A stretch of 20,000 nucleotides of DNA, from IMG/VR virus record IMGVR_UViG_3300002161_000006, positions 58,390-78,389 of that record; one strand, given 5' to 3'. Both the position numbers and the translations under genes were made by a program. Below are positions 9,469 through 20,000 of the stretch, in pieces. A model generated the notes under the pieces. It was given only the letters and a program-made list of their open reading frames with translations. It had not been told where the DNA came from and searched no databases. Origin of the DNA: an uncultured virus (IMG/VR IMGVR_UViG_3300002161_000006) (Duplodnaviria > Heunggongvirae > Uroviricota > Caudoviricetes). Numbering within the stretch: position 1 is the stretch's first letter; the number at the start of each line of letters is the position of its first letter.

Positions 9469-10168
9469 GCTGATTTATACGCCACTCGCGTCATATGCTG
9501 GGTTGGGAGCAGTAGGCATAGGGGCATATGGTCTAATTTTCTTAGGTGTTTCTCCACTTTGGCTTTTAGCAACTTTAGTCTTTACATTCGTTATTCTAAT
9601 GGGTGTAACTGTAGGAATGCATCGCCTATTTTGTCACATGTCATTTAGGACCAATCATTTTTGGGAATATTTGTTGGCATACGTAGGAACATTGGCTATG
9701 TATGGCTCAACTGTACAGTGGTGTGCTATGCACACTTCTCACCATCGATACGCTGATACTGAAAAAGACCCACACTATACGGGTTGGAGGTATCTTTTCT
9801 GGAAGAAAAATAGAAAGACAGAATTCAACAAAAAAGTTCTAGTCAGACTTTATAGACAACCGCTGCATCGATTTCTTCACCGGTACTATACATTGGTGAT
9901 CGCTTTAACGTGTCTTTTTCTCTTTATTATTTCACCTTGGGCATTGGTATTTTGCTATCTCATTCCACTTTTTTGGCTTCACTTCGTTGGTTCATTTCAC
10001 CAGGTATTTGCGCATGGAAGCAAAGGACCAAGAAACCTTCCGATAATGGAAGCATTGATGTTTACTGGTGGTGAGTGGCTTCATAGACAACATCATGACA
10101 GCCCAAAATCTATTCGATTTGGGTCTTTAGATGCTGGATTTTTCTTTATAAGACTTATTTCTGTTTAG
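9431..10168 (+). CDS. Membrane fatty-acid desaturase (delta-9/acyl-CoA desaturase-like)
   Basis: Three His boxes: GVTVGMHRLFCH, HTSHH followed by YADTEKDPH, and GGEWLHRQHH. Hydrophobic transmembrane segments are present. Confidence 0.88.
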   Translation: MLQRHLDKLFNHRLIYTPLASYAGLGAVGIGAYGLIFLGVSPLWLLATLVFTFVILMGVTVGMHRLFCHMSFRTNHFWEYLLAYVGTLAMYGSTVQWCAMHTSHHRYADTEKDPHYTGWRYLFWKKNRKTEFNKKVLVRLYRQPLHRFLHRYYTLVIALTCLFLFIISPWALVFCYLIPLFWLHFVGSFHQVFAHGSKGPRNLPIMEALMFTGGEWLHRQHHDSPKSIRFGSLDAGFFFIRLISV

Positions 10169-11649
10169 CACTCTAACTGGACTTCATACCCCCAGAGATA
10201 ATCTACGTAATCGGTTACAATATCCGCATCAAGTAAATTGAGGTCTCTATCCATATATTGTTCATACTTTAGATGAAGCGTGCGGTCACCTTCAAGGTCG
10301 GCACCCACCACCTTTATTTGAGGAACATAGTTAATTCTCTCCATAGTACGAGCCAAGGCAATTCGAATATTTTTATATCCAATTTCATCATGAATTTCTG
10401 TAACTAGTGCATAGTCTTCTTCTTCCTCATCTTCATCAGGAGGAGGATCAACCCTAATGCTAAACAGCTTCAAGTCACGAATAACTTTAGGTGATAGATA
10501 TTGCTGAATAAAACTGTCATCTCGATGCTCAAATACTGCTTCCTTTACCACATCTTGCCATCGCCTACCAATAAGATGAGGCATCCACTCTTTATCTTCA
10601 TCAGTTGGGTTTTCACAGATGCGCTTTACGTCCTGCAGGATGGCAAAGCCAAGTGCGTAAGGATTGATACCACTGTAGTGACGTGAATTATAACTTGGCT
10701 GATAAATTACACCTGAGTGAAAATCAAGGAACGCCATGAAGGCATCTGGTGATAGAATCCCCTTTTCTTCCAAGCGCGTCATAATGTAGTAGTGGCAGAA
10801 TGAGGCATACCCTTCATTCAGGTTCTTTGTCTGCGCCTGTGGGTAAAAATACTGGTTTACCTTGTAGACAATTCTTAAAATTTCACGCTTCCACTGTTCT
10901 AAAGAAGGAGACTTCTTCATAATGAAGTACAGAAGATTTTCCTCTTCCTCCATTTTATCTTCATCTTCCCTATCAAGCTCAGGGTCGATGGAACTTGTGC
11001 GCTTAAGAATAATGTCTAGTTCTTGCTGCCGCTTCTCTTCACGTTCCATTAGCACCTTAAGCCTAGCCTCTTCACTTAACTTTGGGCGATGCTTGCGCTT
11101 AAACTTATCGATGCCGTGAGGTGCCAGTGCGTGTGCTGCATCTAGCACCATTTCAACTTCATCTTCACCATAACGTTGCTCGCATTGGCGAATATAGTCA
11201 CGCGCAAAAATCATGTAGTCAATAATTGAACCAGCATTTGTCCATTGTTTGAAGGTCTCGTTATTACGAAAAACTGCATTATGCCCAAACGCGGCGTGCG
11301 CAATCACCATTGTCTGCTGCAGCATGCTGTTTTCTTCCATAAGATAAGAGATGCAGGGGTCAGAGTTAATTACAATTTCATATGCTAAACCCATTCGTCC
11401 TGTCTGATATGCCTTTTCATTTTTTAGAAATTCTTTTCCAAATGACCAGTGATTATAGTTAATTGGAAGACCAATAGAAGCATATGCATCCAGCATTTGC
11501 TCCGCACTTATGATTTCAATAGCATTAGGATATAAAAGACCTTTTAATTCTAATTCTTCATGCGCAATTTTTTCGCATTCCATGTAAATTTGCTCAATTA
11601 GCGCAGGTGACCAGTCAGTACGGGATGTGATGTAAAGTGGTGTGCTCAT
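10165..11649 (-). CDS. spoVR: SpoVR/YcgB family protein
   Basis: Motifs GLPINYNHWSFGK, GLAYEIVINSDPCISYLMEEN, HAAFGHN, QTKNLNEGYASFCH and INPYALGF. Sits downstream of yeaH and prkA. Confidence 0.93.
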   Translation of the reverse strand: MSTPLYITSRTDWSPALIEQIYMECEKIAHEELELKGLLYPNAIEIISAEQMLDAYASIGLPINYNHWSFGKEFLKNEKAYQTGRMGLAYEIVINSDPCISYLMEENSMLQQTMVIAHAAFGHNAVFRNNETFKQWTNAGSIIDYMIFARDYIRQCEQRYGEDEVEMVLDAAHALAPHGIDKFKRKHRPKLSEEARLKVLMEREEKRQQELDIILKRTSSIDPELDREDEDKMEEEENLLYFIMKKSPSLEQWKREILRIVYKVNQYFYPQAQTKNLNEGYASFCHYYIMTRLEEKGILSPDAFMAFLDFHSGVIYQPSYNSRHYSGINPYALGFAILQDVKRICENPTDEDKEWMPHLIGRRWQDVVKEAVFEHRDDSFIQQYLSPKVIRDLKLFSIRVDPPPDEDEEEEDYALVTEIHDEIGYKNIRIALARTMERINYVPQIKVVGADLEGDRTLHLKYEQYMDRDLNLLDADIVTDYVDYLWGYEVQLEC

Positions 11650-11762
11650 GACTTCCTTTGAATTGATGGGAATAGACCTACCCCAACTGCTTCTCTAACC
11701 TCTTGTTGCCAGTGAAAATCGATTTTATCAAAAAAGGCTTCTGCTAGATAAGTGACATTCAT
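11646..11762 (-). CDS. Unannotated 38-aa ORF (MNVTYLAEAFFDKIDFHWQQEVREAVGVGLFPSIQRKS)
   Basis: Exactly bridges yeaH and spoVR with ATGA overlaps at both ends. It is absent from the supplied ORF track. Confidence 0.6.
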   Translation of the reverse strand: MNVTYLAEAFFDKIDFHWQQEVREAVGVGLFPSIQRKS

Positions 11763-13123
11763 GCTGATGCCTTTGGCTTCTTTGCATATATTGAACGGAA
11801 GGCGCTAAAGACTGCGCTATCTTCTCCGATCTTGATAGCATGCATCTTTGGATTTGTACGCGAAATTGACGTCATTACATTCCAAAGTGAAACTCCAGAG
11901 GCGTAGTTAAAGGTACCAGCAATAGACATACCTACCTGTACATAGACAGCATGACGCAGTTTAGCAATCAGCCCGTTCTCTTCAAGTTCTGCAATTACCT
12001 GTGGATTATCAGAGTCCCAGTTATCGCCATCTCCCGCATATGAAAGATAGATATTTGTTTGCTGAATATCATATCGTGTCTTAATGATATCGTGCGCAAG
12101 TTTAAATGCTGGGGAAACAATGGTACCACCGCTCTTTCGTGTAGTAAAGAAATCCTCTTCAGTCATCTCCTCCGCACCATCAGTGTGAGCGATAAAGATA
12201 AGATCGGTGTTTGGATATTTCCTCTTGATGAAGGCATACTGCAGTGAAAAGAATTTTCTGGCAACTCGCTTCTTATTCTCATCCATAGAGCCGCTAATGT
12301 CCATCACCATCACAAGAACCGCGTCAGCCTGCTTTACCTGAATACGCTCGCTCTTTTTGTAGCGAAGATCAACTTTTTCAAAGAATGGAATAATTGAAAT
12401 TTTTGACTTTAGTTCTTCAATGCGCTGGATAACATCTTTTCGACGTGCTTCGTAACTTGCGCTTATCGGATTTCCAGAAAGAAATTCTTCAATTTTTTCT
12501 AGTTCTTTTTCAAGTGCAGCAAGTTCTTCACGGCTTTCGGCGGCGACGGCACGTCGCCGCCCAATTGAATTTCTAAATGAGCGAATTACACTAAGTTGAG
12601 CAGCATTGCCTTCCTTCTGAAAACCTGCAGGCTTCCATACTGCTTCAGGCAGGTCCTTTTCATTTGTTTCAAGAAGATCAGGTAGTTCGCAGTCTTCAAA
12701 GAAAACATCAAAGAATTCTGAGCGACTAATATTGACAATAAAATCATCTTCGCCATCTTCGCCAGGTCCGGAACCATTTCCTCTGCCACCTCTGCCACCA
12801 CCACTTCGGTCAATAATAAACTTATCACCTCTTTCCCAACGGTCATTTCCAATGAGTATGCTTTCGTAGTTTCCAGTTGATGAATCGTAGCGGAAGGTAG
12901 GCTCATGAAGTGCGTCCTTCGCAATCTTCACCGGATTGATAAACGACTTAGAGGAAGATTGACCTCCAGCCGCCTTTACTCCTCCAGCATCGATATCTAC
13001 TGGCTTTGATTGACGAATACTATCTTTAATCCGTGCCAGTAATTTAGAACGATTATTAAGTGACTTGCCTCTGCTAGTTTTGCGTCTATCAACGAAAATG
13101 AAAGTCGTTGACGGTAAAGTCAT
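11759..13123 (-). CDS. yeaH: YeaH/YhbH (DUF444) vWA-domain protein
   Basis: FIFVDRR...GKSLNNR, EPTF, GNDRWERGD, Gly-rich linker, MIDAS-like MDISGSM, SGGTIVS and NIYLSYAGDGDNW. Confidence 0.92.
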   Translation of the reverse strand: MTLPSTTFIFVDRRKTSRGKSLNNRSKLLARIKDSIRQSKPVDIDAGGVKAAGGQSSSKSFINPVKIAKDALHEPTFRYDSSTGNYESILIGNDRWERGDKFIIDRSGGGRGGRGNGSGPGEDGEDDFIVNISRSEFFDVFFEDCELPDLLETNEKDLPEAVWKPAGFQKEGNAAQLSVIRSFRNSIGRRRAVAAESREELAALEKELEKIEEFLSGNPISASYEARRKDVIQRIEELKSKISIIPFFEKVDLRYKKSERIQVKQADAVLVMVMDISGSMDENKKRVARKFFSLQYAFIKRKYPNTDLIFIAHTDGAEEMTEEDFFTTRKSGGTIVSPAFKLAHDIIKTRYDIQQTNIYLSYAGDGDNWDSDNPQVIAELEENGLIAKLRHAVYVQVGMSIAGTFNYASGVSLWNVMTSISRTNPKMHAIKIGEDSAVFSAFRSIYAKKPKASA

Positions 13124-13124
13124 A

Positions 13125-13328
13125 TTAGCCCCTTAGAAATAGAAGCGTATAGAAAATGCCAGTAGCGCAAAACCAAGTGTATCCTACTGACCAAATGGCA
13201 AGTGAATTTCCAAACATAAAAGGAATCCAACCAAAAGTTGCCAATAGAAAAGCATATGCCTTGCCTCTGTTGCTCAGACCATCTAGCCAAGAATAAAACT
13301 TGCTTGTGATATTAGATAAAATCTTCAT
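13125..13328 (-). CDS. Small membrane protein (67 aa, about 2 TM)
   Basis: SD GGAGG upstream, two hydrophobic segments, stop 1 nt before the yeaH start. Confidence 0.65.
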   Translation of the reverse strand: MKILSNITSKFYSWLDGLSNRGKAYAFLLATFGWIPFMFGNSLAIWSVGYTWFCATGIFYTLLFLRG

Positions 13329-13349
13329 ATTCAGTCCTCCAGAATGTTA

Positions 13350-15308
13350 CTAGGCCGCCTTCCTATTGTTAGTAAACCAAGCAACTAGAATCTTTGTCTG
13401 ATTTTCAGTATACCCCTTTTCAAGCATTCGCTCAACGAAACCGCGGTGTTTTTCTTCTGTGTCCTTGTCCTGCTTAGGTCCAAATGCAATGACTGGCATA
13501 ATCTGCTCAGTGGCGCTAAACATGCGCTTTTCAATTACGGTCTTGATTTTTTCGTATTGGTCCCAAGATGGTGACTTGCCTTCGTTCTTTGCCTTGTAGC
13601 GCAGAACGTAATGAACGATTTCATTGCGGAAGTCCTTGGCATTTACAATACCAGCCGCCTTTTCAATCTCTTCCAACTTCTTATTGAGATTTTCACGGTC
13701 AAGTAAAGTATGGGTCTCAGGGTCACGACATTGTTCGTCAGCCAACCAAGCCTCGGCGAACAAAACATAGCGTTCAAACATATTCTGACCAAATGAGCGA
13801 TAACTTTCAAGGTAGGCTGTGCGCAGTTCCTTTTCAAGGAACTCAAAGTAGCGTGGCTGGAGGTGTGACTTGATGAAGTCAAGGTACTCATCAGTCGTTT
13901 CCTTTGGAAGATTTTCCTTCTTCACGCTCTCCTCAAGCACGTACATTAGATCAATAGGGTTTGCCTGCTGTTCCTCTGGGCGTAGGTCATAGGTTGCAGA
14001 AAGAACCTTGAAGGCGAAGCGGGTAGACATTCCCTTCATTCCCTCGTCATTCCCAGCGGCATCGCGATACTCTTCGTATGGCTTTGCATTGGGCATGGTG
14101 TCCTTTACGTTATCACCGTTATAAACGCGAAGTTTGGCGTAGATGGTACTGTTTTCTGGCTTCTTTAGGCGGGTAAGAATGCTCCACTGTGCCAGCATCT
14201 TAAGTGTTCCAGGTGCACATGGTGCAGTTGCGAGAGAACTTACCTTAAGCATCTTTTCGTAGATAAGAATTTCTTCAATAGTTCGCAAGCAGTATGGTAC
14301 ATCGACAATGTAAACCCGGTCAAGGAATGCTTCGTTAGTTTTGTTGTTGCGGAAATTGAACCACTCGCTTTCATTTGAGTGAGCCATAATAATTCCGGTA
14401 TAAGGCATAGAAGGAATGGCTTCAGTGCCGTTATAGTTGTGTTCCTGTGTAGCCATTAGCAATGGGTTGAGCGTCTTGATATTTGCCTTAAACATTTCAG
14501 CAAAATCCATCAAACCCTGATTAGTGCGGTTGAGACCACCACTGTATGAATACGCGTATGGGTGATTCTGAGGAAATTTTTCCAATTTACGAATATCAAT
14601 CTTTCCAACTAGAACTGAAACGTCCTGGTTGTTTTCATCGCCTGGCTCAACCTTCATCACGCCGATTTGGCTGTCCTTATTTGGATAAACCTTAATTACC
14701 TTAAAGCGGGTAATATCACCGTCAAATTCCTTCAATTTTTCCTGAGCCCACCCACTCATTACCGTATTAAGGTAGCGCTGTGGAATTCCATATTCCTTCT
14801 CAAGCATTTCTCCGTGCTCAAACTGGTTGAATAGCCCTAGAGGGCTATCAAGAACAGGAGACATCCGCTTTTCTACATCATTTTCTTGTGCATCATAAAG
14901 AACATAGATTGGAAACTTCTGCATCAAAGCCTTTAGGCGCTCTGCAAGAGATGACTTACCACCACCTACTGGTCCCTTTAGATACAGAATTTGCTTGCTC
15001 TCTTCTAGTCCTGCTGCACTATTTCGGAAGTATGCTGCAATTCGCTCAATTGCATCTTCTGCTCCGTAAAAATCAGCAAATGAACGATATAGACGAATTT
15101 TCTTGTTTGAGTGAATTCTTGAAAGACGAGCGTCTTCACTCGTATCAATAATTTCAGGCTGGCCGATTGCAGCAACCATTCTCTCTGCTGCAGTTGCATA
15201 GGTCATTTTATCCTGCTTACACCTGTCTAGAAACTGTTCCAGCGAAATAATTTCTGGCTGGGCAAATTTACTAGCAAATGAGGCGGAAAGAGATGAGAGA
15301 GCAGTCAT
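13350..15308 (-). CDS. prkA: PrkA/YeaG AAA+ ATPase / atypical Ser kinase
   Basis: Walker A GPVGGGKSS, EPGDENNQDVS, YSYSGGLNRTNQGLMDFAEMFKA, AHSNESEW, NEAFLDR and GMSTRFAFK. Confidence 0.95.
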   Translation of the reverse strand: MTALSSLSASFASKFAQPEIISLEQFLDRCKQDKMTYATAAERMVAAIGQPEIIDTSEDARLSRIHSNKKIRLYRSFADFYGAEDAIERIAAYFRNSAAGLEESKQILYLKGPVGGGKSSLAERLKALMQKFPIYVLYDAQENDVEKRMSPVLDSPLGLFNQFEHGEMLEKEYGIPQRYLNTVMSGWAQEKLKEFDGDITRFKVIKVYPNKDSQIGVMKVEPGDENNQDVSVLVGKIDIRKLEKFPQNHPYAYSYSGGLNRTNQGLMDFAEMFKANIKTLNPLLMATQEHNYNGTEAIPSMPYTGIIMAHSNESEWFNFRNNKTNEAFLDRVYIVDVPYCLRTIEEILIYEKMLKVSSLATAPCAPGTLKMLAQWSILTRLKKPENSTIYAKLRVYNGDNVKDTMPNAKPYEEYRDAAGNDEGMKGMSTRFAFKVLSATYDLRPEEQQANPIDLMYVLEESVKKENLPKETTDEYLDFIKSHLQPRYFEFLEKELRTAYLESYRSFGQNMFERYVLFAEAWLADEQCRDPETHTLLDRENLNKKLEEIEKAAGIVNAKDFRNEIVHYVLRYKAKNEGKSPSWDQYEKIKTVIEKRMFSATEQIMPVIAFGPKQDKDTEEKHRGFVERMLEKGYTENQTKILVAWFTNNRKAA

Positions 15309-16473: not shown

Positions 16474-16519
16474 CAGTTTTGGCAGTTTGTTATTACTTTT
16501 TTGTAACCTTGTAACAAGG

Positions 16520-17059
16520 TTATTTGGTGATCTTCCTAAGGGTGATGTATGTTGTCTCTACATCACCATCCCATTGCGTAGAATGGGTTTCTACGTCCCA
16601 AAGAATTTCTTGCTTTCTTTGAGAGATTATAAATCTTTTCCACTCGTAGATATTTGTCTTGATTTTAACCTCAGCCTCACTTGATGAGGCTATAAGTGTC
16701 ATATGAATTTCATCTACTAGATTTTTTTCTAGTGCTTCATCATAGACAGATGCTCCGCCCGCCACCCAAATATGTTTCTGCTTTTTCCCAACATATTTTT
16801 CAAGAACGTCAATTGAGGAAACATACTTGACGCTTTTATGCAAAACCGGAGTTTTTGATAAGACGATATTCTTGCGATTTGGAAGACCATTTGGTCGCTT
16901 AAGGCTCCTAAATGTAGTATTTCCCATAAGAACCGTGTCACCTATGGTGAGAGCCCTAAATCTCATTAGATCATTTTTCAGGTTTGGATATGCTAACCTA
17001 CCATCAGACCAACCAATGGTACCTACACCATCTACTGCTAGAATGAGTTTTACGGCCAT
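16520..17059 (-). CDS. folA: Dihydrofolate reductase (divergent)
   Basis: LILAVD..GTIG, conserved Asp in NDLMRF, VLMGNTTFRSL, LPNRKNIVLS, IWVAGGASVY and DEIHMT. TAATG overlap with the Ro60 stop. Confidence 0.88.
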   Translation of the reverse strand: MAVKLILAVDGVGTIGWSDGRLAYPNLKNDLMRFRALTIGDTVLMGNTTFRSLKRPNGLPNRKNIVLSKTPVLHKSVKYVSSIDVLEKYVGKKQKHIWVAGGASVYDEALEKNLVDEIHMTLIASSSEAEVKIKTNIYEWKRFIISQRKQEILWDVETHSTQWDGDVETTYITLRKITK

Positions 17060-18675
17060 TAGAACTTCTTGCCAAACTGGGAGATAATCTGTGGCGCAGC
17101 GCTGTCAAATCCAGCAATGTCCAACTGTAGAGGATCATTTGGGTCAGAGACCGAAACATCTGTCACAGACGTGGCAATAATAACTTGACGTGTCTTGGGT
17201 GTGTCCATCTTGCGGCGATACTGCTTGAGCGCATCTGTTGCGTGGATTTGACCTGCCCACGTTTCATTGTCGGTGATGCTCACGAAGGTATCCACCTTCA
17301 TGCGATTTTCAAGCGCGTGGGTTGCTGGTAGAGAAAGATCGGTGCCGCCCCAGTTAAACTTCTGCATCTTCTTCAACACGGCATCTAGGCGCATGTTGGG
17401 GCTAATGTGCAATTCTGACATTTTGGTGTTGAAGCCACCAATCCAGTAGTTAGAATGATTTTTTACCACAGCAAGAGCCATCACAGCCGCTACTTCAGCC
17501 GCTGAAAGATTAGGAGAGCCATTTACTTTTACGCCAAACATTGAGGCAGAGCAATCAACGCCTAGGAGATAGGCTTCATCGCTCTTCTCACCCTGCTCAA
17601 AGGCCGCATAAAATGCATCGTCGAGCGCATCAACAATTCGCTGATTTGGCTTCCACTTTGCCTTGCTCTTTTCACCTTGACCGGCTGAATACTGCCTAAT
17701 CGCTTGAAGGAGCGTCAGTGGATGCACGCGCTGGTCACGAAGCGCATGTGTATTTGACAGTTTGCTGATTATCAAGTTGGAGCCTTCAGACAGTGGCGTC
17801 AGCACCCCATGAGAGGTCAGAATACCCAACTTGCGAATTACGGCAGTGAGACCCATATTGACAAGTAGCGCTGAGAGCACGTCCTTATCTGTCATCCACT
17901 TAGTGGGCACCATTTCCCAAGTAATATCCTTGTTGTCTGAAATGATGCGAAGCACTTCCTCACGCGAAGAGGAGGTCTTCAGTGTCTCAAAGTCCTGAAC
18001 GAGTTTTGGCAGCGCTTCGAGATTTGACTTCTTTCCAACTGCATATCCAAGTAAAGCCTCCTGCTCGGGAGATGTTGGCTTGGTATGTGAAAGACGTAGC
18101 ACGTCTCGGTGTGCCCACCCGTTTCGTGACTTGTACTTTAGCAGTTGAACAGCAAGGCGTTGAATGTCCTTGTCGTTATACCACTTAGCAATGCCCCTCT
18201 TTGCTGCAGCATTCCACTTGCCAAGAGCGTCAAGAATGGAGACAAACAGGAATAGCCAAGTGCCGGTGCGTGCAACCTTTGGGAGGGCATCATAGGCGGC
18301 TTCAATTGTCGCCGCGTTTCCATAAACCGCGGCTAGCGCGATGGCAACAACTGAGGTGTCGTTCTTGGGAGACCTGCCAGTAAGAGAATACTCCAGCGCA
18401 TGGCGCACTACTCGCACACCATCTTCGGCAATGCACGCCTTGATGGTATCAAAGCCCTGCTTAGTAATATCCTGCTGCGATGCATAGTAGGATGATTGCT
18501 CGCTGCCAATCAGGAGGAAGCGGTCAAGGACGCTCCACTTATCCAACTTGAAGGCAAAACCCCCAGCGTTGTTAAGTTTCATTTCACTCTCGCGGCCAGG
18601 GATGGGCTCAGCCTGCGTGGGGAGAGTGCTTGAAGGAGATGATGAGCGGGCGTATTGCGAGTAGATGCTTGACAT
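17059..18675 (-). CDS. rsr: Ro60/TROVE-domain RNA-binding protein with C-terminal vWA domain
   Basis: NNAGGFAF, LDRFLLIGS, RTGTWLF, LLKYKSRNGWAHRDVLRLSH, RVHP, MIDAS DCSASM, GGTD, TDNETW and IAGFD. Strong SD AAGGAG. Confidence 0.95.
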   Translation of the reverse strand: MSSIYSQYARSSSPSSTLPTQAEPIPGRESEMKLNNAGGFAFKLDKWSVLDRFLLIGSEQSSYYASQQDITKQGFDTIKACIAEDGVRVVRHALEYSLTGRSPKNDTSVVAIALAAVYGNAATIEAAYDALPKVARTGTWLFLFVSILDALGKWNAAAKRGIAKWYNDKDIQRLAVQLLKYKSRNGWAHRDVLRLSHTKPTSPEQEALLGYAVGKKSNLEALPKLVQDFETLKTSSSREEVLRIISDNKDITWEMVPTKWMTDKDVLSALLVNMGLTAVIRKLGILTSHGVLTPLSEGSNLIISKLSNTHALRDQRVHPLTLLQAIRQYSAGQGEKSKAKWKPNQRIVDALDDAFYAAFEQGEKSDEAYLLGVDCSASMFGVKVNGSPNLSAAEVAAVMALAVVKNHSNYWIGGFNTKMSELHISPNMRLDAVLKKMQKFNWGGTDLSLPATHALENRMKVDTFVSITDNETWAGQIHATDALKQYRRKMDTPKTRQVIIATSVTDVSVSDPNDPLQLDIAGFDSAAPQIISQFGKKF

Positions 18676-18696
18676 ACAATCTCCTTTTTAAAACTA

Positions 18697-18958
18697 TCAA
18701 AACGACAAAAACTAAGTTGGAAGTTCAGTGAATAAAACAATAAGTCCTAATCACCTACACCCATTTATTTCGTAATAGGTAACTCACGGATATTACGTTA
18801 TCCGACCGTCCATTTAATTCTCAGTTAAATGAAAAACCTATCCATTTTTTGGATAATGGCATCCTCTAATTTCCAGACTTATCTTTCAACTCGCGTGGAT
18901 TGATTAGAATTTCTATCACCATCATCGTTATGATAACCAACTTTAACGGTCGTTTTGA
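18697..18958 (-). ncRNA. Long Y-RNA-like ncRNA (about 262 nt)
   Basis: 10-bp terminal stem UCAAAACGAC/GUCGUUUUGA, bulged C, then G-U. 7-bp upper stem AAGUUGG/CCAACUU and a CCG-N8-GGUUAUC motif. Multiple internal hairpins. Lies immediately upstream of rsr. Confidence 0.75.
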
Positions 18959-18969
18959 AATAACTAGTA

Positions 18970-19086
18970 ATCTGAAACAAAACAGGTATGGGTGTAAGGA
19001 ATTAGCCAGTCCTTAACTTCTGCTTTCAGACTGCTATGCAGTCAGGCTATCCATTATATGATAACCATATCCTCACGGTTTCAGAT
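18970..19086 (-). ncRNA. Y-RNA-like ncRNA (about 117 nt)
   Basis: 9-bp terminal stem AUCUGAAAC/GUUUCAGAU, bulged C, then G-U. Upper stem AGG(A)UAUGG/CCAUACCU and a CCG-N9-GGUUAUC motif. Internal hairpins GACUGC/GCAGUC and UAAGGA/UCCUUA. Confidence 0.82.
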
Positions 19087-19107
19087 GTTTTCAACTTTGA
19101 TGAAGCA

Positions 19108-19136
19108 ATTCTACTATAGAAACAAACTACTGTAAA
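19108..19136 (-). promoter_or_regulatory. sigma70-type promoter for the Y RNA-rsr-DHFR unit
   Basis: TTTACA (19136-19131), a 17-nt spacer, then TAGAAT (19113-19108), ending 21 nt upstream of the first Y-RNA stem. Confidence 0.65.
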
Positions 19137-19158
19137 ACTGTTTATTCAGGTTGAAGTT

Positions 19159-19782
19159 TTATTCTTTCTTCTTAGTTAATCTAGCAAGAAGGGCAGCCTT
19201 GAATTTTGGTGCCTGCACCTTGTAAATTCCGTCAAAGGCTCTCGTGTAGTTTGACACAAGCCTATCAACCGGAGAAAGGTCTGCTCGCGTTTTTGCAGTT
19301 GCTGGCTCTGCTGACTTTAATCTTCCGGTGTATGGTGCCTTTCCCCCAGTGCTGTAGGAAGTGATGCTTGTAATTCTTCCACTCAGTAAAACACGGCGCC
19401 ATACTGCTTGACCCTGCTCATCTCCAAGTAGAGAGCCTTTCTTGCCCGTAAAGAGAAATGTGCCATTTTTCTCTTCACGCTTAGTTGTTTTCTCAACAAA
19501 TCCAATCTTCAAGAGTTTGGCATATTCTTCGCTTTCGCGCGCCTTCTTCATCGCAGGTGCAAGATCTTCAGTTGTTGCACCAATTTCTTCCAACCAATCT
19601 CCAGCGATACCAGTTATAATGCCCTGGCGGTTATAAATTCTATGGCCACCAGTGTCTGTCCATGCGCTGGCTCTTTGTGAACCATACGATGGTTCAGCAT
19701 ACCCACGCCGATTAGGTATCTTTTTTCCCTGAGCATCTTTTTTAGATGTGTAAAGTTCTAGTAGAAGTTCAGCAGCTTTCAT
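19159..19782 (-). CDS. Hypothetical basic protein (207 aa)
   Basis: Long ORF on the same strand as its neighbours. No family recognised. Confidence 0.7.
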   Translation of the reverse strand: MKAAELLLELYTSKKDAQGKKIPNRRGYAEPSYGSQRASAWTDTGGHRIYNRQGIITGIAGDWLEEIGATTEDLAPAMKKARESEEYAKLLKIGFVEKTTKREEKNGTFLFTGKKGSLLGDEQGQAVWRRVLLSGRITSITSYSTGGKAPYTGRLKSAEPATAKTRADLSPVDRLVSNYTRAFDGIYKVQAPKFKAALLARLTKKKE

Positions 19783-19852
19783 GTTATTTCCGGTCTGACC
19801 GGTCTGAATTAATTATAACTGTAGCCTGTCTATCAATTTCAGGTGCCTGACC

Positions 19853-19999
19853 TTACGCCACACGGGGCTTAGGATCGCGTGGGCTAGGTGCACTGATATA
19901 TTTTGATTTCCTGTCGAGAGGAACTGCTTTACCTGTAATGTCTCTAGTTGCGTGACCTGCGATTGCCTTTATTTTTCCTTGTTGAGCTAATTTTGATGC
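19853..19999 (-). CDS. 3' end of a basic hypothetical protein running off the window
   Basis: Open frame ASKLAQQGKIKAIAGHATRDITGKAVPLDRKSKYISAPSPRDPKPRVA* from the window edge. Confidence 0.4.
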   Translation of the reverse strand, partial: ASKLAQQGKIKAIAGHATRDITGKAVPLDRKSKYISAPSPRDPKPRVA

Positions 20000-20000
20000 C

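What the first reader, a model, noticed from the sequence alone, without database searches (positions are those of the whole stretch)
18697..18958. Oversized Y RNA: Ro-binding stem carrying a ~215-nt multi-hairpin domain
Seen (+ coordinates, RNA on the - strand): a long-range helix AUAAGUC/GACUUAU (18876-18882 with 18740-18746) encloses four hairpins. These are UAUCCA/UGGAUA (18839-18855), CAUUUAA-CUGAGAA-UUAAAUG (18811-18831), CGGAUA-ACGUAA-UAUCCG (18787-18804) and ACCUAUU..GAAA..AAUGGGU (18759-18780; its G-U pair favours the - strand). More hairpins lie near the 5' side. Loops contain UGAGA (T-loop-like) and GNRA-like sequences, suggesting tertiary folding. Known: characterised Y RNAs are roughly half this size, and their distal domain is a swappable effector (tRNA-like in YrlA). 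Inference: this may be a new Y-RNA class whose effector domain recruits a different partner.
Basis: partly seen in the sequence, partly recalled or inferred. Interest (0 to 1): 0.85.

Follow-up and report, generated by a model that had tools for sequence, protein, structure and literature searches.

The report
Giant Y-type RNA beside phage Ro60
Just ahead of its Ro60 gene, a jumbo phage encodes a conserved 268-base folded RNA with the docking stem of a Y RNA but an inner domain about 2.5 times the usual size, and environmental RNA data hint that it may be a closed circle.

Summary
The flagged stretch is a real RNA gene on the minus strand. It lies 21 nt upstream of a Ro60/Rsr gene in a jumbo-phage fragment. 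Homologues occur in 28 of 28 detected loci (18 distinct sequences), always just upstream of Ro60 on the same strand.

Compensatory changes support the terminal stem, a second stem, an arm with an invariant 20-nt loop, and four hairpins.

The basal "handle" is stem, CCG loop, stem ending GG, then UUAUC. This handle marks Ro60-linked RNAs generally: 124 same-strand versus 2 opposite-strand copies in 95 Ro60 loci. One copy sits beside a mycobacteriophage RNA that Rfam's YrlA model detects.

No Rfam model (Y_RNA, YrlA, sbRNA, tRNA) matches this RNA. Its enclosed domain is 216 nt, against about 86 nt in that YrlA. It is therefore a new, oversized Y-type RNA family. Binding to Ro60 is inferred.

One metatranscriptome contig covers exactly 18696-18963 and then restarts at 18696, which suggests a circular 268-nt form. 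The phage encodes an Rnl1-type RNA ligase.

The scan had found ordinary Y-RNA arrays in other genomes, but no look-alike of this RNA.

The parts
18696..18963 (-). RNA2: the RNA unit as it appears in an RNA library (268 nt), 5'-UUAUUUCAAAACGAC...GUCGUUUUGAU-3'
   Evidence: Contig record 3 of run X1 covers 18696-18963 with 0 mismatches and then repeats 18696-18725. Homologues are 262-336 nt between the terminal-stem strands that I picked in 11 loci.
18949..18958 (-). P1, 5' strand of the terminal (lower) stem, UCAAAACGAC
   Evidence: Pairs with 18697-18706. 97.6% paired and 7 of 9 pairs with double changes. Significant duplex in 17 of 18 homologues.
18697..18706 (-). P1, 3' strand, GUCGUUUUGA, preceded by a U-run
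18932..18948 (-). Handle core: CCG-bearing internal loop (CGUUA), P2 5' strand AAGUUGG, then UUAUC
   Evidence: The motif CCG-N5-14-GGUUAYC occurs 124 times on the same strand and 2 times on the opposite strand in 95 Ro60 loci. Module listing.
18714..18728 (-). Conserved 3' block CUGAACUUCCAACUU, including the P2 3' strand CCAACUU
   Evidence: P2 is 81.8% paired; the inner four pairs are 100% paired, with U-A/U-G/C-G alternation.
18864..18909 (-). P3/P4 arm (UUCUAAU/AUUAGAG and UCCA/UGGA) capped by the invariant 20-nt loop CGCGAGUUGAAAGAUAAGUC (18876-18895)
   Evidence: Nested pairing right beside the loop in 16 of 16 homologues, with different helix sequences. Individual z is +0.2... in detail -0.2 to -3.5; Stouffer z -6.0 on related sequences. 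The MAFFT columns did not resolve this arm.
18838..18859 (-). P5 hairpin CCAU/AUGG running into the conserved GGAUAG
Evidence: 82.9% paired and 3 of 4 pairs with double changes.
18810..18832 (-). H3 hairpin UCAUUUAA/UUAAAUGG
   Evidence: 100% paired and 3 of 5 pairs with double changes.
18787..18804 (-). H4 hairpin CGGAUA/UAUCCG. The loop is ACGUAA here and GUCGAAYA or GUCGUAA in relatives.
   Evidence: 80% paired and 5 of 5 pairs with double changes. Variant 18804 G>A in run X2 would turn C-G into U-G, but it rests on one contig at depth 2.
18754..18780 (-). H5, a 7-bp hairpin ACCUAUU/AAUGGGU running into the invariant GGUGUAGG
   Evidence: 89.9% paired and 4 of 7 pairs with double changes. 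GGUGUAG is invariant in 10 of 10 sequences.
18728..18754 (-). H6, a variable arm (GUGAUUAGGAC/GUUUUAUUCAC in the window)
   Evidence: Present in the window's minimum-energy fold. This region varies in length and hairpin number among relatives and is not alignable.
18971..19085 (-). RNA1: a smaller tandem Y-type RNA with the same handle (CUGAAAC-CCG..GGUUAUC ... UUUUG-GUUUCAG)
   Evidence: By eye, the terminal helix differs compensatorily among relatives (GGAAC/GUUCC, ACGAC/GUCGU, GUGAC/GUCAC and others).
19108..19136 (-). Sigma-70-like promoter candidate TTTACA-17-TAGAAT upstream of RNA1
   Evidence: 10 of 12 consensus matches, but 3 sites were found against 1.7 +/- 1.3 expected, so the scan alone is not significant. 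Relatives carry TATAAAAT or GTATAAT at the matching place, by eye.
17059..18675 (-). rsr: Ro60 orthologue, 538 aa
   Evidence: PF25045 vWA_Ro60 at 2.8e-48 and PF05731 TROVE at 7.3e-25.

Best explanation
Window 18696-18963 (minus strand) is a gene for a non-coding RNA of about 268 nt. It is the second of two tandem Y-type RNA genes lying between a promoter-like site and the phage's Ro60 (rsr) gene.

Shown:
- The two ends pair (P1).
- Next comes an internal loop, with CCG on the 5' side and a U-run plus G on the 3' side.
- Then comes a second stem (P2) that ends ..GG and runs into UUAUC.
- The same handle recurs in front of, or just behind, Ro60 genes of very different phages and bacteria. One copy lies next to an RNA that Rfam's YrlA model recognises.

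Inferred:
- The phage Ro60 ring docks on this handle, as it does on other Y RNAs.
- Instead of a tRNA-like module of about 86 nt, the handle carries a 216-nt domain. The domain has an arm with an invariant 20-nt loop, four covarying hairpins, a variable arm and invariant linkers (GGAUAG, GGACGUU-like, GGUGUAGG).
- This domain is the effector side. It would tether Ro60 to one or more partners, such as a host exoribonuclease like PNPase or RNA-repair or tRNA-handling enzymes.
- The order H4 (UCGAA-type loop), 7-bp H5, G-UA-G, H6 mirrors the T arm, acceptor-like stem, UA, D arm order of YrlA. The domain may therefore be a remodelled and expanded YrlA module.

Processing and topology:
- No promoter lies directly upstream and no terminator downstream, so the RNA must be cut out of a longer transcript.
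- One RNA-library contig joins its 3' end (18696) to its 5' end (18963). I take this as a hint, at about even odds, that part of the pool is ligated into a circle that closes P1 with a 6-nt loop.
- The ligase might be the phage's own Rnl1-type enzyme.
For: Context:
- The Ro60 gene starts 21 nt downstream on the same strand.
- The window belongs to a 78-kb viral record rated 19% complete; an identical locus lies on a 330-kb contig.

Conservation:
- nhmmer finds homologues in 28 loci at E<1e-6, forming 18 clusters at 95% identity.
- All 28 lie upstream of a Ro60 gene on the same strand. The tblastn match, which begins at query residue 17-25, starts 74-129 nt after the RNA match ends.
- Nine of these 28 loci were fetched by RNA motifs alone.
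- The 207-aa upstream gene is found in only 8 of the 28.

Structure: P1, P2, P5, H3, H4 and H5 covary. The P3/P4 arm is present in 16 of 16 homologues.

Handle:
- CCG-N5-14-GGUUAYC occurs 124 times on the Ro60 strand and 2 times on the other strand in 95 Ro60 loci (497 kb).
- 100 copies lie within 800 nt upstream of Ro60. 56 of 95 loci have at least one copy and 33 have at least two.
- Phage Sparky has two copies. The first ends 11 nt before the Rfam YrlA hit (36.6 bits, E 1e-5 to 1e-6).
- Rfam's printed consensus for nematode RF01656 has the same layout: stem, bulged C, GG, stem ending GGG, then UUAUC.
- Chen et al. 2014 (PMC4201824, sections 5 and 6 read) describe a 5' GNCGAAN0-1G motif and a YUAY that begins the V loop.

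Size:
- 216 nt are enclosed by P2, against about 86 nt in Sparky by my reading.
- The last handle lies a median 339 nt before the Ro60 start in this clade (29 loci) and 149 nt in distant loci (27 loci). The spacing between handles has a median of 142 nt (n=48).

Expression and topology:
- X1 record 3 is 298 nt. It equals 18696-18963 followed by 18696-18725, with 0 mismatches.
- A circular fold keeps the same structure (-67.5 against -72.0 kcal/mol linear).
- An Rnl1-type ligase (PF09511, 3.8e-24) is encoded on the same contig.

Precedent: two Y-like RNAs lie upstream of the Ro60 gene of a Thermus phage and bind that Ro60 in gel shifts (PMC12135203, section 17 and passages read).
Against: - No Rfam model matches. 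Y_RNA, YrlA and RF01656 give 0 hits at E<=10 on the whole record.
- There is no tRNA-like hit.
- The published GNCGAA motif is not met in the window: the RNA has GACCGUU.
- Homology of H4/H5/H6 to the T, acceptor-like and D elements rests on order and short motifs only.
- Binding to Ro60 and any partner are untested.

The circle rests on one contig of one run.
- The read-laying tool lists no joint.
- The tool also warns that an RNA library can hold DNA and that contigs show neither ends nor levels.
- That 30 letters equals k-1 of the assembler is my recollection.
Confidence: 0.75

Rival explanations
1. It is a cis-acting leader of the rsr mRNA. In this reading the folded region is a 5' UTR that senses Ro60 or another ligand and controls rsr translation or stability, and it is not a free RNA.
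For: - It lies directly upstream of rsr on the same strand in 28 of 28 loci.
- No terminator-like site lies between it and rsr (0 found).
- Relatives have a further conserved hairpin (UUGCUGC...GCAGCCG) just before the ribosome-binding site.
Against: - The RNA-library contig stops at both ends of the fold and restarts at its own beginning instead of running into rsr.
- The handle is the one shared by free Y RNAs.
- The window itself lacks the pre-ribosome-binding-site hairpin.
- A processed RNA can also be released from a leader, so the two readings are not exclusive.
Confidence: 0.1
2. It is a structured RNA with its own activity (a ribozyme, a self-circularising element or a decoy). In this reading it merely travels with rsr and does not bind Ro60.
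For: - It is a large multi-helix fold with invariant loops and no Rfam match.
- There is a head-to-tail junction.
Against: - It is strictly linked to Ro60 and carries the Ro60-locus handle.
- No group I intron, hammerhead or other ribozyme model hits at E<=10.
- The CUGAGA in the H3 loop is not conserved.
- The last base is U, not G.
Confidence: 0.07
3. The RNA is a Y-type RNA but is linear in the cell. In this reading the head-to-tail contig comes from template switching, from ligation during library making, or from a tandem duplication in the sampled population.
For: - There is only one contig from one run.
- The tool lists no joint, and the second piece is 30 letters, below the tool's bridging rule.
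- The contig starts exactly at the junction, which is also what a collapsed tandem repeat would give.
Against: - Three assembled DNA contigs are collinear with a single copy.
- The junction falls 5 nt before and 1 nt after the conserved terminal stem, where ends held together by P1 could be sealed.
- An Rnl1-type ligase is encoded by the phage.
Confidence: 0.5

Closest known systems
YrlA, the tRNA-like bacterial and phage Y RNA (Rfam RF02553; Chen et al. 2014, PMC4201824)
   Same: - It is encoded next to Ro60 on the same strand.
- Its ends pair.
- It has a 5' CCG-type motif, followed a few bases later by GGUUAYC (the YUAY of Chen et al.).
- The 3' strand of a 7-bp hairpin runs into G-UA-G and another hairpin. 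The mycobacteriophage Sparky YrlA region shows GGUGUAG as well.
   Different: - The RF02553 model gives no hit at E<=10.
- There are no T-arm or D-arm sequences and no tRNA-model hit.
- The enclosed domain is 216 nt rather than about 86 nt. The extra elements are the P3/P4 arm with an invariant 20-nt loop, P5 and H3.
- The GNCGAA motif has degenerated to GACCGUU.
Metazoan Y RNAs and nematode stem-bulge RNAs (Rfam RF00019 and RF01656)
   Same: The layout is lower stem, bulged C, G, upper stem ending in GG(G), then UUAUC opening the loop. This is seen in the RF01656 consensus and structure line printed. That RF01656 belongs to the stem-bulge RNAs is my recollection.
   Different: - Neither model hits.
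- The loop domain is several times larger and highly structured.
- The RNA is phage-encoded and cut from a longer transcript.
Yrl1 and Yrl2 of Thermus phage phiLo (PMC12135203)
   Same: Two Y-like RNAs lie in tandem upstream of a phage Ro60 gene. They have a stem-bulge-stem form and were shown to bind the phage Ro60 and, with it, host PNPase (abstract, passages and section 17 read).
   Different: - Those RNAs are described as one- or two-hairpin RNAs with a CGAA motif.
- Nothing there resembles the 216-nt domain, and no circular form is mentioned ('circular' occurs 0 times in that text).
DucS, a bacterial non-coding RNA with linear and circular forms (PMC10504365)
   Same: It is a DNA-encoded regulatory RNA of a prokaryote that is found in both linear and circular form (abstract read).
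   Different: It has no relation to Ro60 and no sequence or fold likeness was tested. Its circle was validated experimentally, whereas here there is only one contig.

Membership tests
Y RNA (RNA partner of Ro60, in the broad sense) | Encoded within a few kb of the Ro60 gene on the same strand (criterion for bacteria and phages in Chen et al. 2014) | tested here: met
   The RNA is 21 nt upstream of rsr on the same strand. The same holds in 28 of 28 homologous loci.
Y RNA (RNA partner of Ro60, in the broad sense) | 5' and 3' ends pair into a stem interrupted by a loop or bulge, followed by an upper stem | tested here: met
   P1 is 97.6% paired and P2 81.8% paired, both with compensatory changes. 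The P1 duplex is significant in 17 of 18 homologues.
Y RNA (RNA partner of Ro60, in the broad sense) | Ro60-contact motif near the 5' end (GNCGAAN0-1G in bacteria, GGUCCGA in vertebrates) | tested here: inconclusive
   The window has GACCGUU in RNA2 and AACCGUG in RNA1: GNCG is kept and AA is lost. The wider signature CCG-N5-14-GGUUAYC is met and is specific to Ro60 loci, 124 against 2.
Y RNA (RNA partner of Ro60, in the broad sense) | Physically bound by Ro60 | not testable with these tools
   No RNA-protein tool is available. A gel shift or co-purification is needed.
Y_RNA, Rfam RF00019 | Match to the covariance model | tested here: not met
   0 matches at E<=10 on the 78-kb record. Nothing in the cmscan of 18500-19300.
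YrlA, Rfam RF02553 | Match to the covariance model | tested here: not met
   0 matches at E<=10 and 0 in 11 homologous loci at E<=1. Positive control: phage Sparky scores 36.6 bits at E about 1e-6.
YrlA, Rfam RF02553 | tRNA-like domain with T arm and D arm | tested here: not met
   ARAGORN finds 0 tRNA genes and the Rfam tRNA model does not hit. Only the order of the hairpins, the UCGAA-type H4 loop in relatives and G-UA-G recall it.
Covalently circular RNA | Reads or contigs that join the 3' end to the 5' end, absent from DNA | tested here: inconclusive
   One RNA-library contig equals 18696-18963 plus 18696-18725. The tool lists no joint, and the second piece has 30 letters. Assembled DNA contigs are collinear. 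The junction was not searched for in DNA runs.

The most novel reading that the evidence does not exclude
A phage-encoded Y RNA that is covalently circular in the cell. The Ro60-docking stem would hold its processed ends together. A ligase, perhaps the phage's own Rnl1-type enzyme, would seal them into a 6-nt loop. The result would be an exonuclease-proof scaffold whose 216-nt ornate domain tethers Ro60 to a partner that no known Y RNA recruits.
Probability: 0.35. Interest if true: 0.88.

Novelty: new variant of a known kind. Interest (0 to 1): 0.72.

Why it matters
Y RNAs are thought to work as modular tethers, with a constant Ro60 handle and a swappable effector module. The known bacterial and phage modules are small and mostly tRNA-like.

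This family keeps the handle and replaces the module with a conserved domain of about 216 nt and seven helices, including invariant loops. It occurs in at least 18 distinct sequences from uncultured phages, several of them on contigs of 300 kb or more.

Three things follow:
- It gives a concrete new effector domain whose partner can be fished out.
- It provides a handle signature, CCG-N5-14-GGUUAYC, that finds Y-type RNAs which the Rfam models miss.
- If the head-to-tail junction is real, it would be the first Y RNA known to be circular, and a natural substrate for a phage RNA ligase other than broken tRNA.

Tried and rejected
Weak Rfam matches. U3 (E 0.068, at 19064-19166, outside RNA2) and drum (14.9 bits, E 4.9) are treated as chance.

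Ribozyme and intron ideas.
- Group I intron or self-splicing circle: no model hit, and the last base is U.
- Hammerhead reading of CUGAGA in the H3 loop: not conserved.
- A pseudoknot between CCUAC upstream of the 20-nt loop and GUAGG fits only 4 relatives by eye, while GGUGUAGG is invariant. Dropped.

Pairings.
- UUAUC with GAUAG: both are nearly invariant, and the two variants (L019, L022) are not compensated. Left open.
- The energy test of the P3/P4 arm with 34-36-nt flanks was weak: at most 8 of 200 shuffles did as well in only 5 of 16 homologues. It was replaced by 22-nt flanks.
- The MAFFT columns did not resolve P3, P4 or H6.

Loose DNA patterns mostly gave chance matches.
- In one search, 6 of 94 stretches were true homologues.
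Absence from bacterial genomes is therefore not shown.

Other searches.
- The phage collection gave no DNA match.
- The record behind L017 is not held, so RNA-ligase genes could be sought only on the 78-kb record, which is 19% complete.

Run X1.
- It has no contig over RNA1 (18964-19160) or over 18046-18695. The tool says a hole proves nothing.
- Contig depths were 18.4 on RNA2, 3.4-4.2 on rsr pieces and 7.9 on the upstream gene. The tool says these cannot rank genes, so I do not use them as evidence.

Runs X2 and X3 hold small shares and near-identical variants. I make no claim about habitat or strain.

I did not build a covariance model. The full-length alignment has 401 columns, over the limit, and nhmmer profiles were enough.
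Full report
**Where it lies**

The window is the last 20 kb of a 78,389-base viral record rated 19% complete. An identical locus lies on a 329,993-base metagenome contig (L017) and on a second viral contig (L002). Tail-fibre genes, a PrkA/DUF444/SpoVR trio, DHFR and bactofilin surround the locus. Together these point to a fragment of an uncultured jumbo phage.

ORF 17059-18675 (minus strand) is a 538-aa Ro60 orthologue, with vWA_Ro60 at 2.8e-48 and TROVE at 7.3e-25. Upstream of it lies a 483-nt gap (18676-19158) of about 35% G+C, against about 50% in the genes. The flagged stretch fills the gene-proximal half of that gap.

**Checking the observation**

All quoted strings are present.
- The minus strand folds to -71.2 kcal/mol (z -4.29, 0 of 200 shuffles as good).
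- The plus strand also gives z -4.04.
- No tRNA is found.
- No Rfam family reaches its gathering score in the whole window.
- At E<=10 only chance-level matches appear.

**Relatives**

- The Ro60 protein has thousands of relatives. The closest non-identical ones are 67% identical.
- With an alignment of 44 of them I fetched 80 metagenome loci, in addition to 15 viral loci.
- nhmmer with the gap sequence found homologous upstream regions in 5 non-identical loci.
- A profile of 11 sequences (A2) extended this.
- After two pattern scans, 28 loci matched at E<1e-6, forming 18 clusters at 95% identity.
- In all 28 a Ro60 gene follows on the same strand. The tblastn match, which begins at query residue 17-25, starts 74-129 nt after the end of the RNA match.
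- Nine of the 28 had been fetched by RNA motifs alone.
- The 207-aa upstream gene of the window is found in only 8 of the 28.
- None of 120 pattern matches in bacterial and archaeal genomes was a true homologue.
- The RNA is 262-336 nt between the terminal-stem strands that I picked in 11 loci.

**Structure**

RNAalifold on A2 predicted 26 pairs, 16 of them with compensatory changes. Counting named helices gave the following.

| Helix | Cells paired | Pairs changed on both sides |
|---|---|---|
| P1 | 97.6% | 7 of 9 |
| P2 | 81.8% | inner four pairs always paired, alternating U-A/U-G/C-G |
| P5 (CCAU/AUGG) | 82.9% | 3 of 4 |
| H3, H4, H5 together | 89.9% (34-46% with slid partners) | 12 of 17 (0 of 500 shuffles as good) |

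- P1 also forms in 17 of 18 homologues, at z -2.6 to -7.0. The exception, L036, has z -1.4.
- An invariant 20-nt loop (CGCGAGUUGAAAGAUAAGUC in the window) is closed by nested helices P4 and P3 in 16 of 16 homologues, with different sequences in each. Individual z is -0.2 to -3.5 apart from weaker cases near zero, and Stouffer z is -6.0 on related sequences.
Its 5' strand lies within that invariant loop.
- The region after GGUGUAGG (H6) varies in length and in number of hairpins.

**What it is**

The decisive clue came from a control. Rfam does hold a bacterial Y RNA family, YrlA (RF02553). That model detects an RNA upstream of the Ro60 gene of mycobacteriophage Sparky at 36.6 bits, E about 1e-6.

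Directly 5' of that hit, Sparky has CCGGACGUGGAUCGGUUAUC, and a second copy lies 148 nt further on. The window's RNA2 has CCGUUAAAGUUGGUUAUC in the same place. A smaller RNA upstream (RNA1, about 19085-18971) has CCGUGAGGAUAUGGUUAUC.

I counted the pattern CCG-N5-14-GGUUAYC in 95 Ro60 loci (497 kb):
- 124 copies on the Ro60 strand and 2 on the other strand;
- 100 copies within 800 nt upstream of Ro60;
- at least one copy in 56 loci and at least two in 33;
- several copies just after the gene.

The loci include Ro60 proteins only 33-47% identical to this one. In those loci the motif reads GNCGAAG-type, for example GGCCGAAG or GACCGAAG. This is the Rsr-contact motif of Chen et al. 2014, whose YUAY corresponds to the UUAU of GGUUAUC.

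Rfam's printed consensus for the nematode family RF01656 shows the same layout: stem, bulged C, GG, stem ending GGG, then UUAUC. That this family belongs to the stem-bulge Y-RNA relatives is my recollection.

RNA1 and RNA2 therefore both carry the general Y-RNA handle. P1 is the lower stem and P2 the upper stem. The published GNCGAA motif itself has degenerated here to GACCGUU.

**Size and novelty of the inner domain**

- P2 encloses 216 nt. By my reading, the matching stem in Sparky (GAUCGG/CCGGUC) encloses about 86 nt.
- The Rfam models have 96 positions (Y_RNA) and 114 positions (YrlA).
- In this Ro60 clade the last handle lies a median 339 nt before the Ro60 start (29 loci). In distant loci the median is 149 nt (27 loci). 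Successive handles are a median 142 nt apart (n=48).
- None of Y_RNA, YrlA or RF01656 hits the 78-kb record at E<=10.
- Eleven homologous loci (60,721 bases) give no Rfam match at E<=1.
- The order H4 (5-bp stem; loop GUCGAAYA or GUCGUAA in relatives), 7-bp H5, G-UA-G, H6 recalls the T arm, acceptor-like stem, UA, D arm order of the YrlA consensus. Sparky also has GGUGUAG at that junction. This is an inference from order and short motifs, with no statistical support.

**Expression and a possible circle**

One freshwater metatranscriptome run (X1), kept as assembled contigs, holds part of the stretch. Laid on 16500-20000, it gives four error-free pieces:
- two pieces inside rsr;
- one piece in the upstream gene;
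- record 3, of 298 nt, which equals 18696-18963 (268 nt) followed by 18696-18725 (30 nt).

On the RNA strand, base 18696 (one base after the terminal stem) is therefore followed by base 18963 (five bases before the stem).

As far as I recall, the assembler behind these contigs uses words of 31 letters. A closed path of 268 words would then be printed as 268 + 30 letters, and every word across the junction must have been read.

The caveats are serious:
- There is one contig from one run.
- The tool lists no joint.
- Its rule for counting a bridge (31 letters on both sides) is missed by one letter.
- It warns that contigs show no ends, strand or level, and that RNA libraries can hold DNA.
- A tandem duplication in the sampled population or template switching would look the same.

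Points against a DNA origin and for a real circle:
- Three assembled DNA contigs carry a single collinear copy.
- A circular fold keeps the whole structure (-67.5 against -72.0 kcal/mol).
- The same viral record encodes an RNA ligase of the T4 Rnl1 type (PF09511, 3.8e-24).

I put the odds of a real circular form at about even. I did not search for the junction in DNA, because that would need a joined sequence.

**How it probably works**

Shown:
- a conserved RNA present in an RNA library;
- the handle shared with Ro60-linked RNAs;
- a large covarying domain;
- strict linkage to Ro60.

Inferred:
- Transcription starts at a promoter-like site upstream of RNA1: TTTACA-17-TAGAAT at 19136-19108, with TATAAAAT-like boxes in relatives.
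- RNA1 and RNA2 are cut out of that transcript.
- Ro60 docks on the handle.
- The 216-nt domain brings a partner to Ro60. Precedents are the PNPase tethering described for Deinococcus (abstract of PMC4201824) and for Thermus phage phiLo (PMC12135203).
- A sealed circle would be immune to the 3'-to-5' exonucleases that such complexes recruit.

**Comparison and verdict**

Tandem Y RNAs before rsr are ordinary. The scan's earlier notes list arrays of two to six in other genomes. Its index holds no look-alike of this RNA and no notes on this genome.

My literature searches on circular Y RNA, and on jumbo phages with Ro60 and structured RNA, found no description of an oversized or circular Y RNA. 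Those searches cover open-access papers and preprints only.

I file the RNA as a new variant of a known kind. It is a Y-type RNA by handle and context. It is not a member of any Rfam family. It has a new effector domain and a possible circular topology.

Noticed in passing
window 18971-19085 (-): RNA1 is a smaller RNA of about 115 nt with the same handle as RNA2 (terminal helix CUGAAAC/GUUUCAG, CCG..GGUUAUC, UUUUG). By eye, its terminal helix differs compensatorily among relatives (GGAAC/GUUCC, AUGAAC/GUUCAU, ACGAC/GUCGU, GUGAC/GUCAC, GCGAC/GUCGC).
   Followed up: partly
L018:2350-2385, with the same place in L019, L020, L024, L030, L047 and L049: A conserved hairpin UUGCUGC...GCAGCCG lies between RNA2 and the ribosome-binding site of rsr in most relatives but is absent from the window. 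It may be a processing or translational-control element.
   Followed up: no
window 19140-19158 (-), and the matching place in L018, L019, L020, L028 and L030: A conserved box UUCAACCUG lies right after the upstream gene, followed by promoter-like boxes and, in several relatives, a small hairpin (AUGCAUCGAGUAAUCGAUGCA) before RNA1.
   Followed up: no
window 10165-15308 (-): A PrkA kinase, a DUF444 (YeaH-like) protein and a SpoVR-like protein lie in a row on a phage contig. In bacteria this trio is a stress-response module.
   Followed up: no
G000:C1:17105-18241 (L216), with other genes of L216-L218: Besides the Rnl1-type RNA ligase, the record carries a Tad3-type Thoeris inhibitor, PhoH, ClpP, two thymidylate synthases, gyrase/topoisomerase subunits, DnaJ and a UDP-galactopyranose mutase.
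   Followed up: no
L082:1493-2290 and L090:845-1829: Arrays of six and seven Y-type handles lie upstream of distant Ro60 genes, spaced about 57-412 nt apart.
   Followed up: no
L022:2130-2160: Near its 3' end, this relative's RNA2 carries a second copy of the 5' motif (CAGUUGGUUAC, which looks like a tRNA D-loop). It may be an internal duplication.
   Followed up: no
L054-L062 (Ro60 45-50% identical): This subgroup of Ro60 loci has no CCG-N5-14-GGUUAYC handle at all in the held DNA. Its Ro60 partner RNA may use another handle or lie elsewhere.
   Followed up: no
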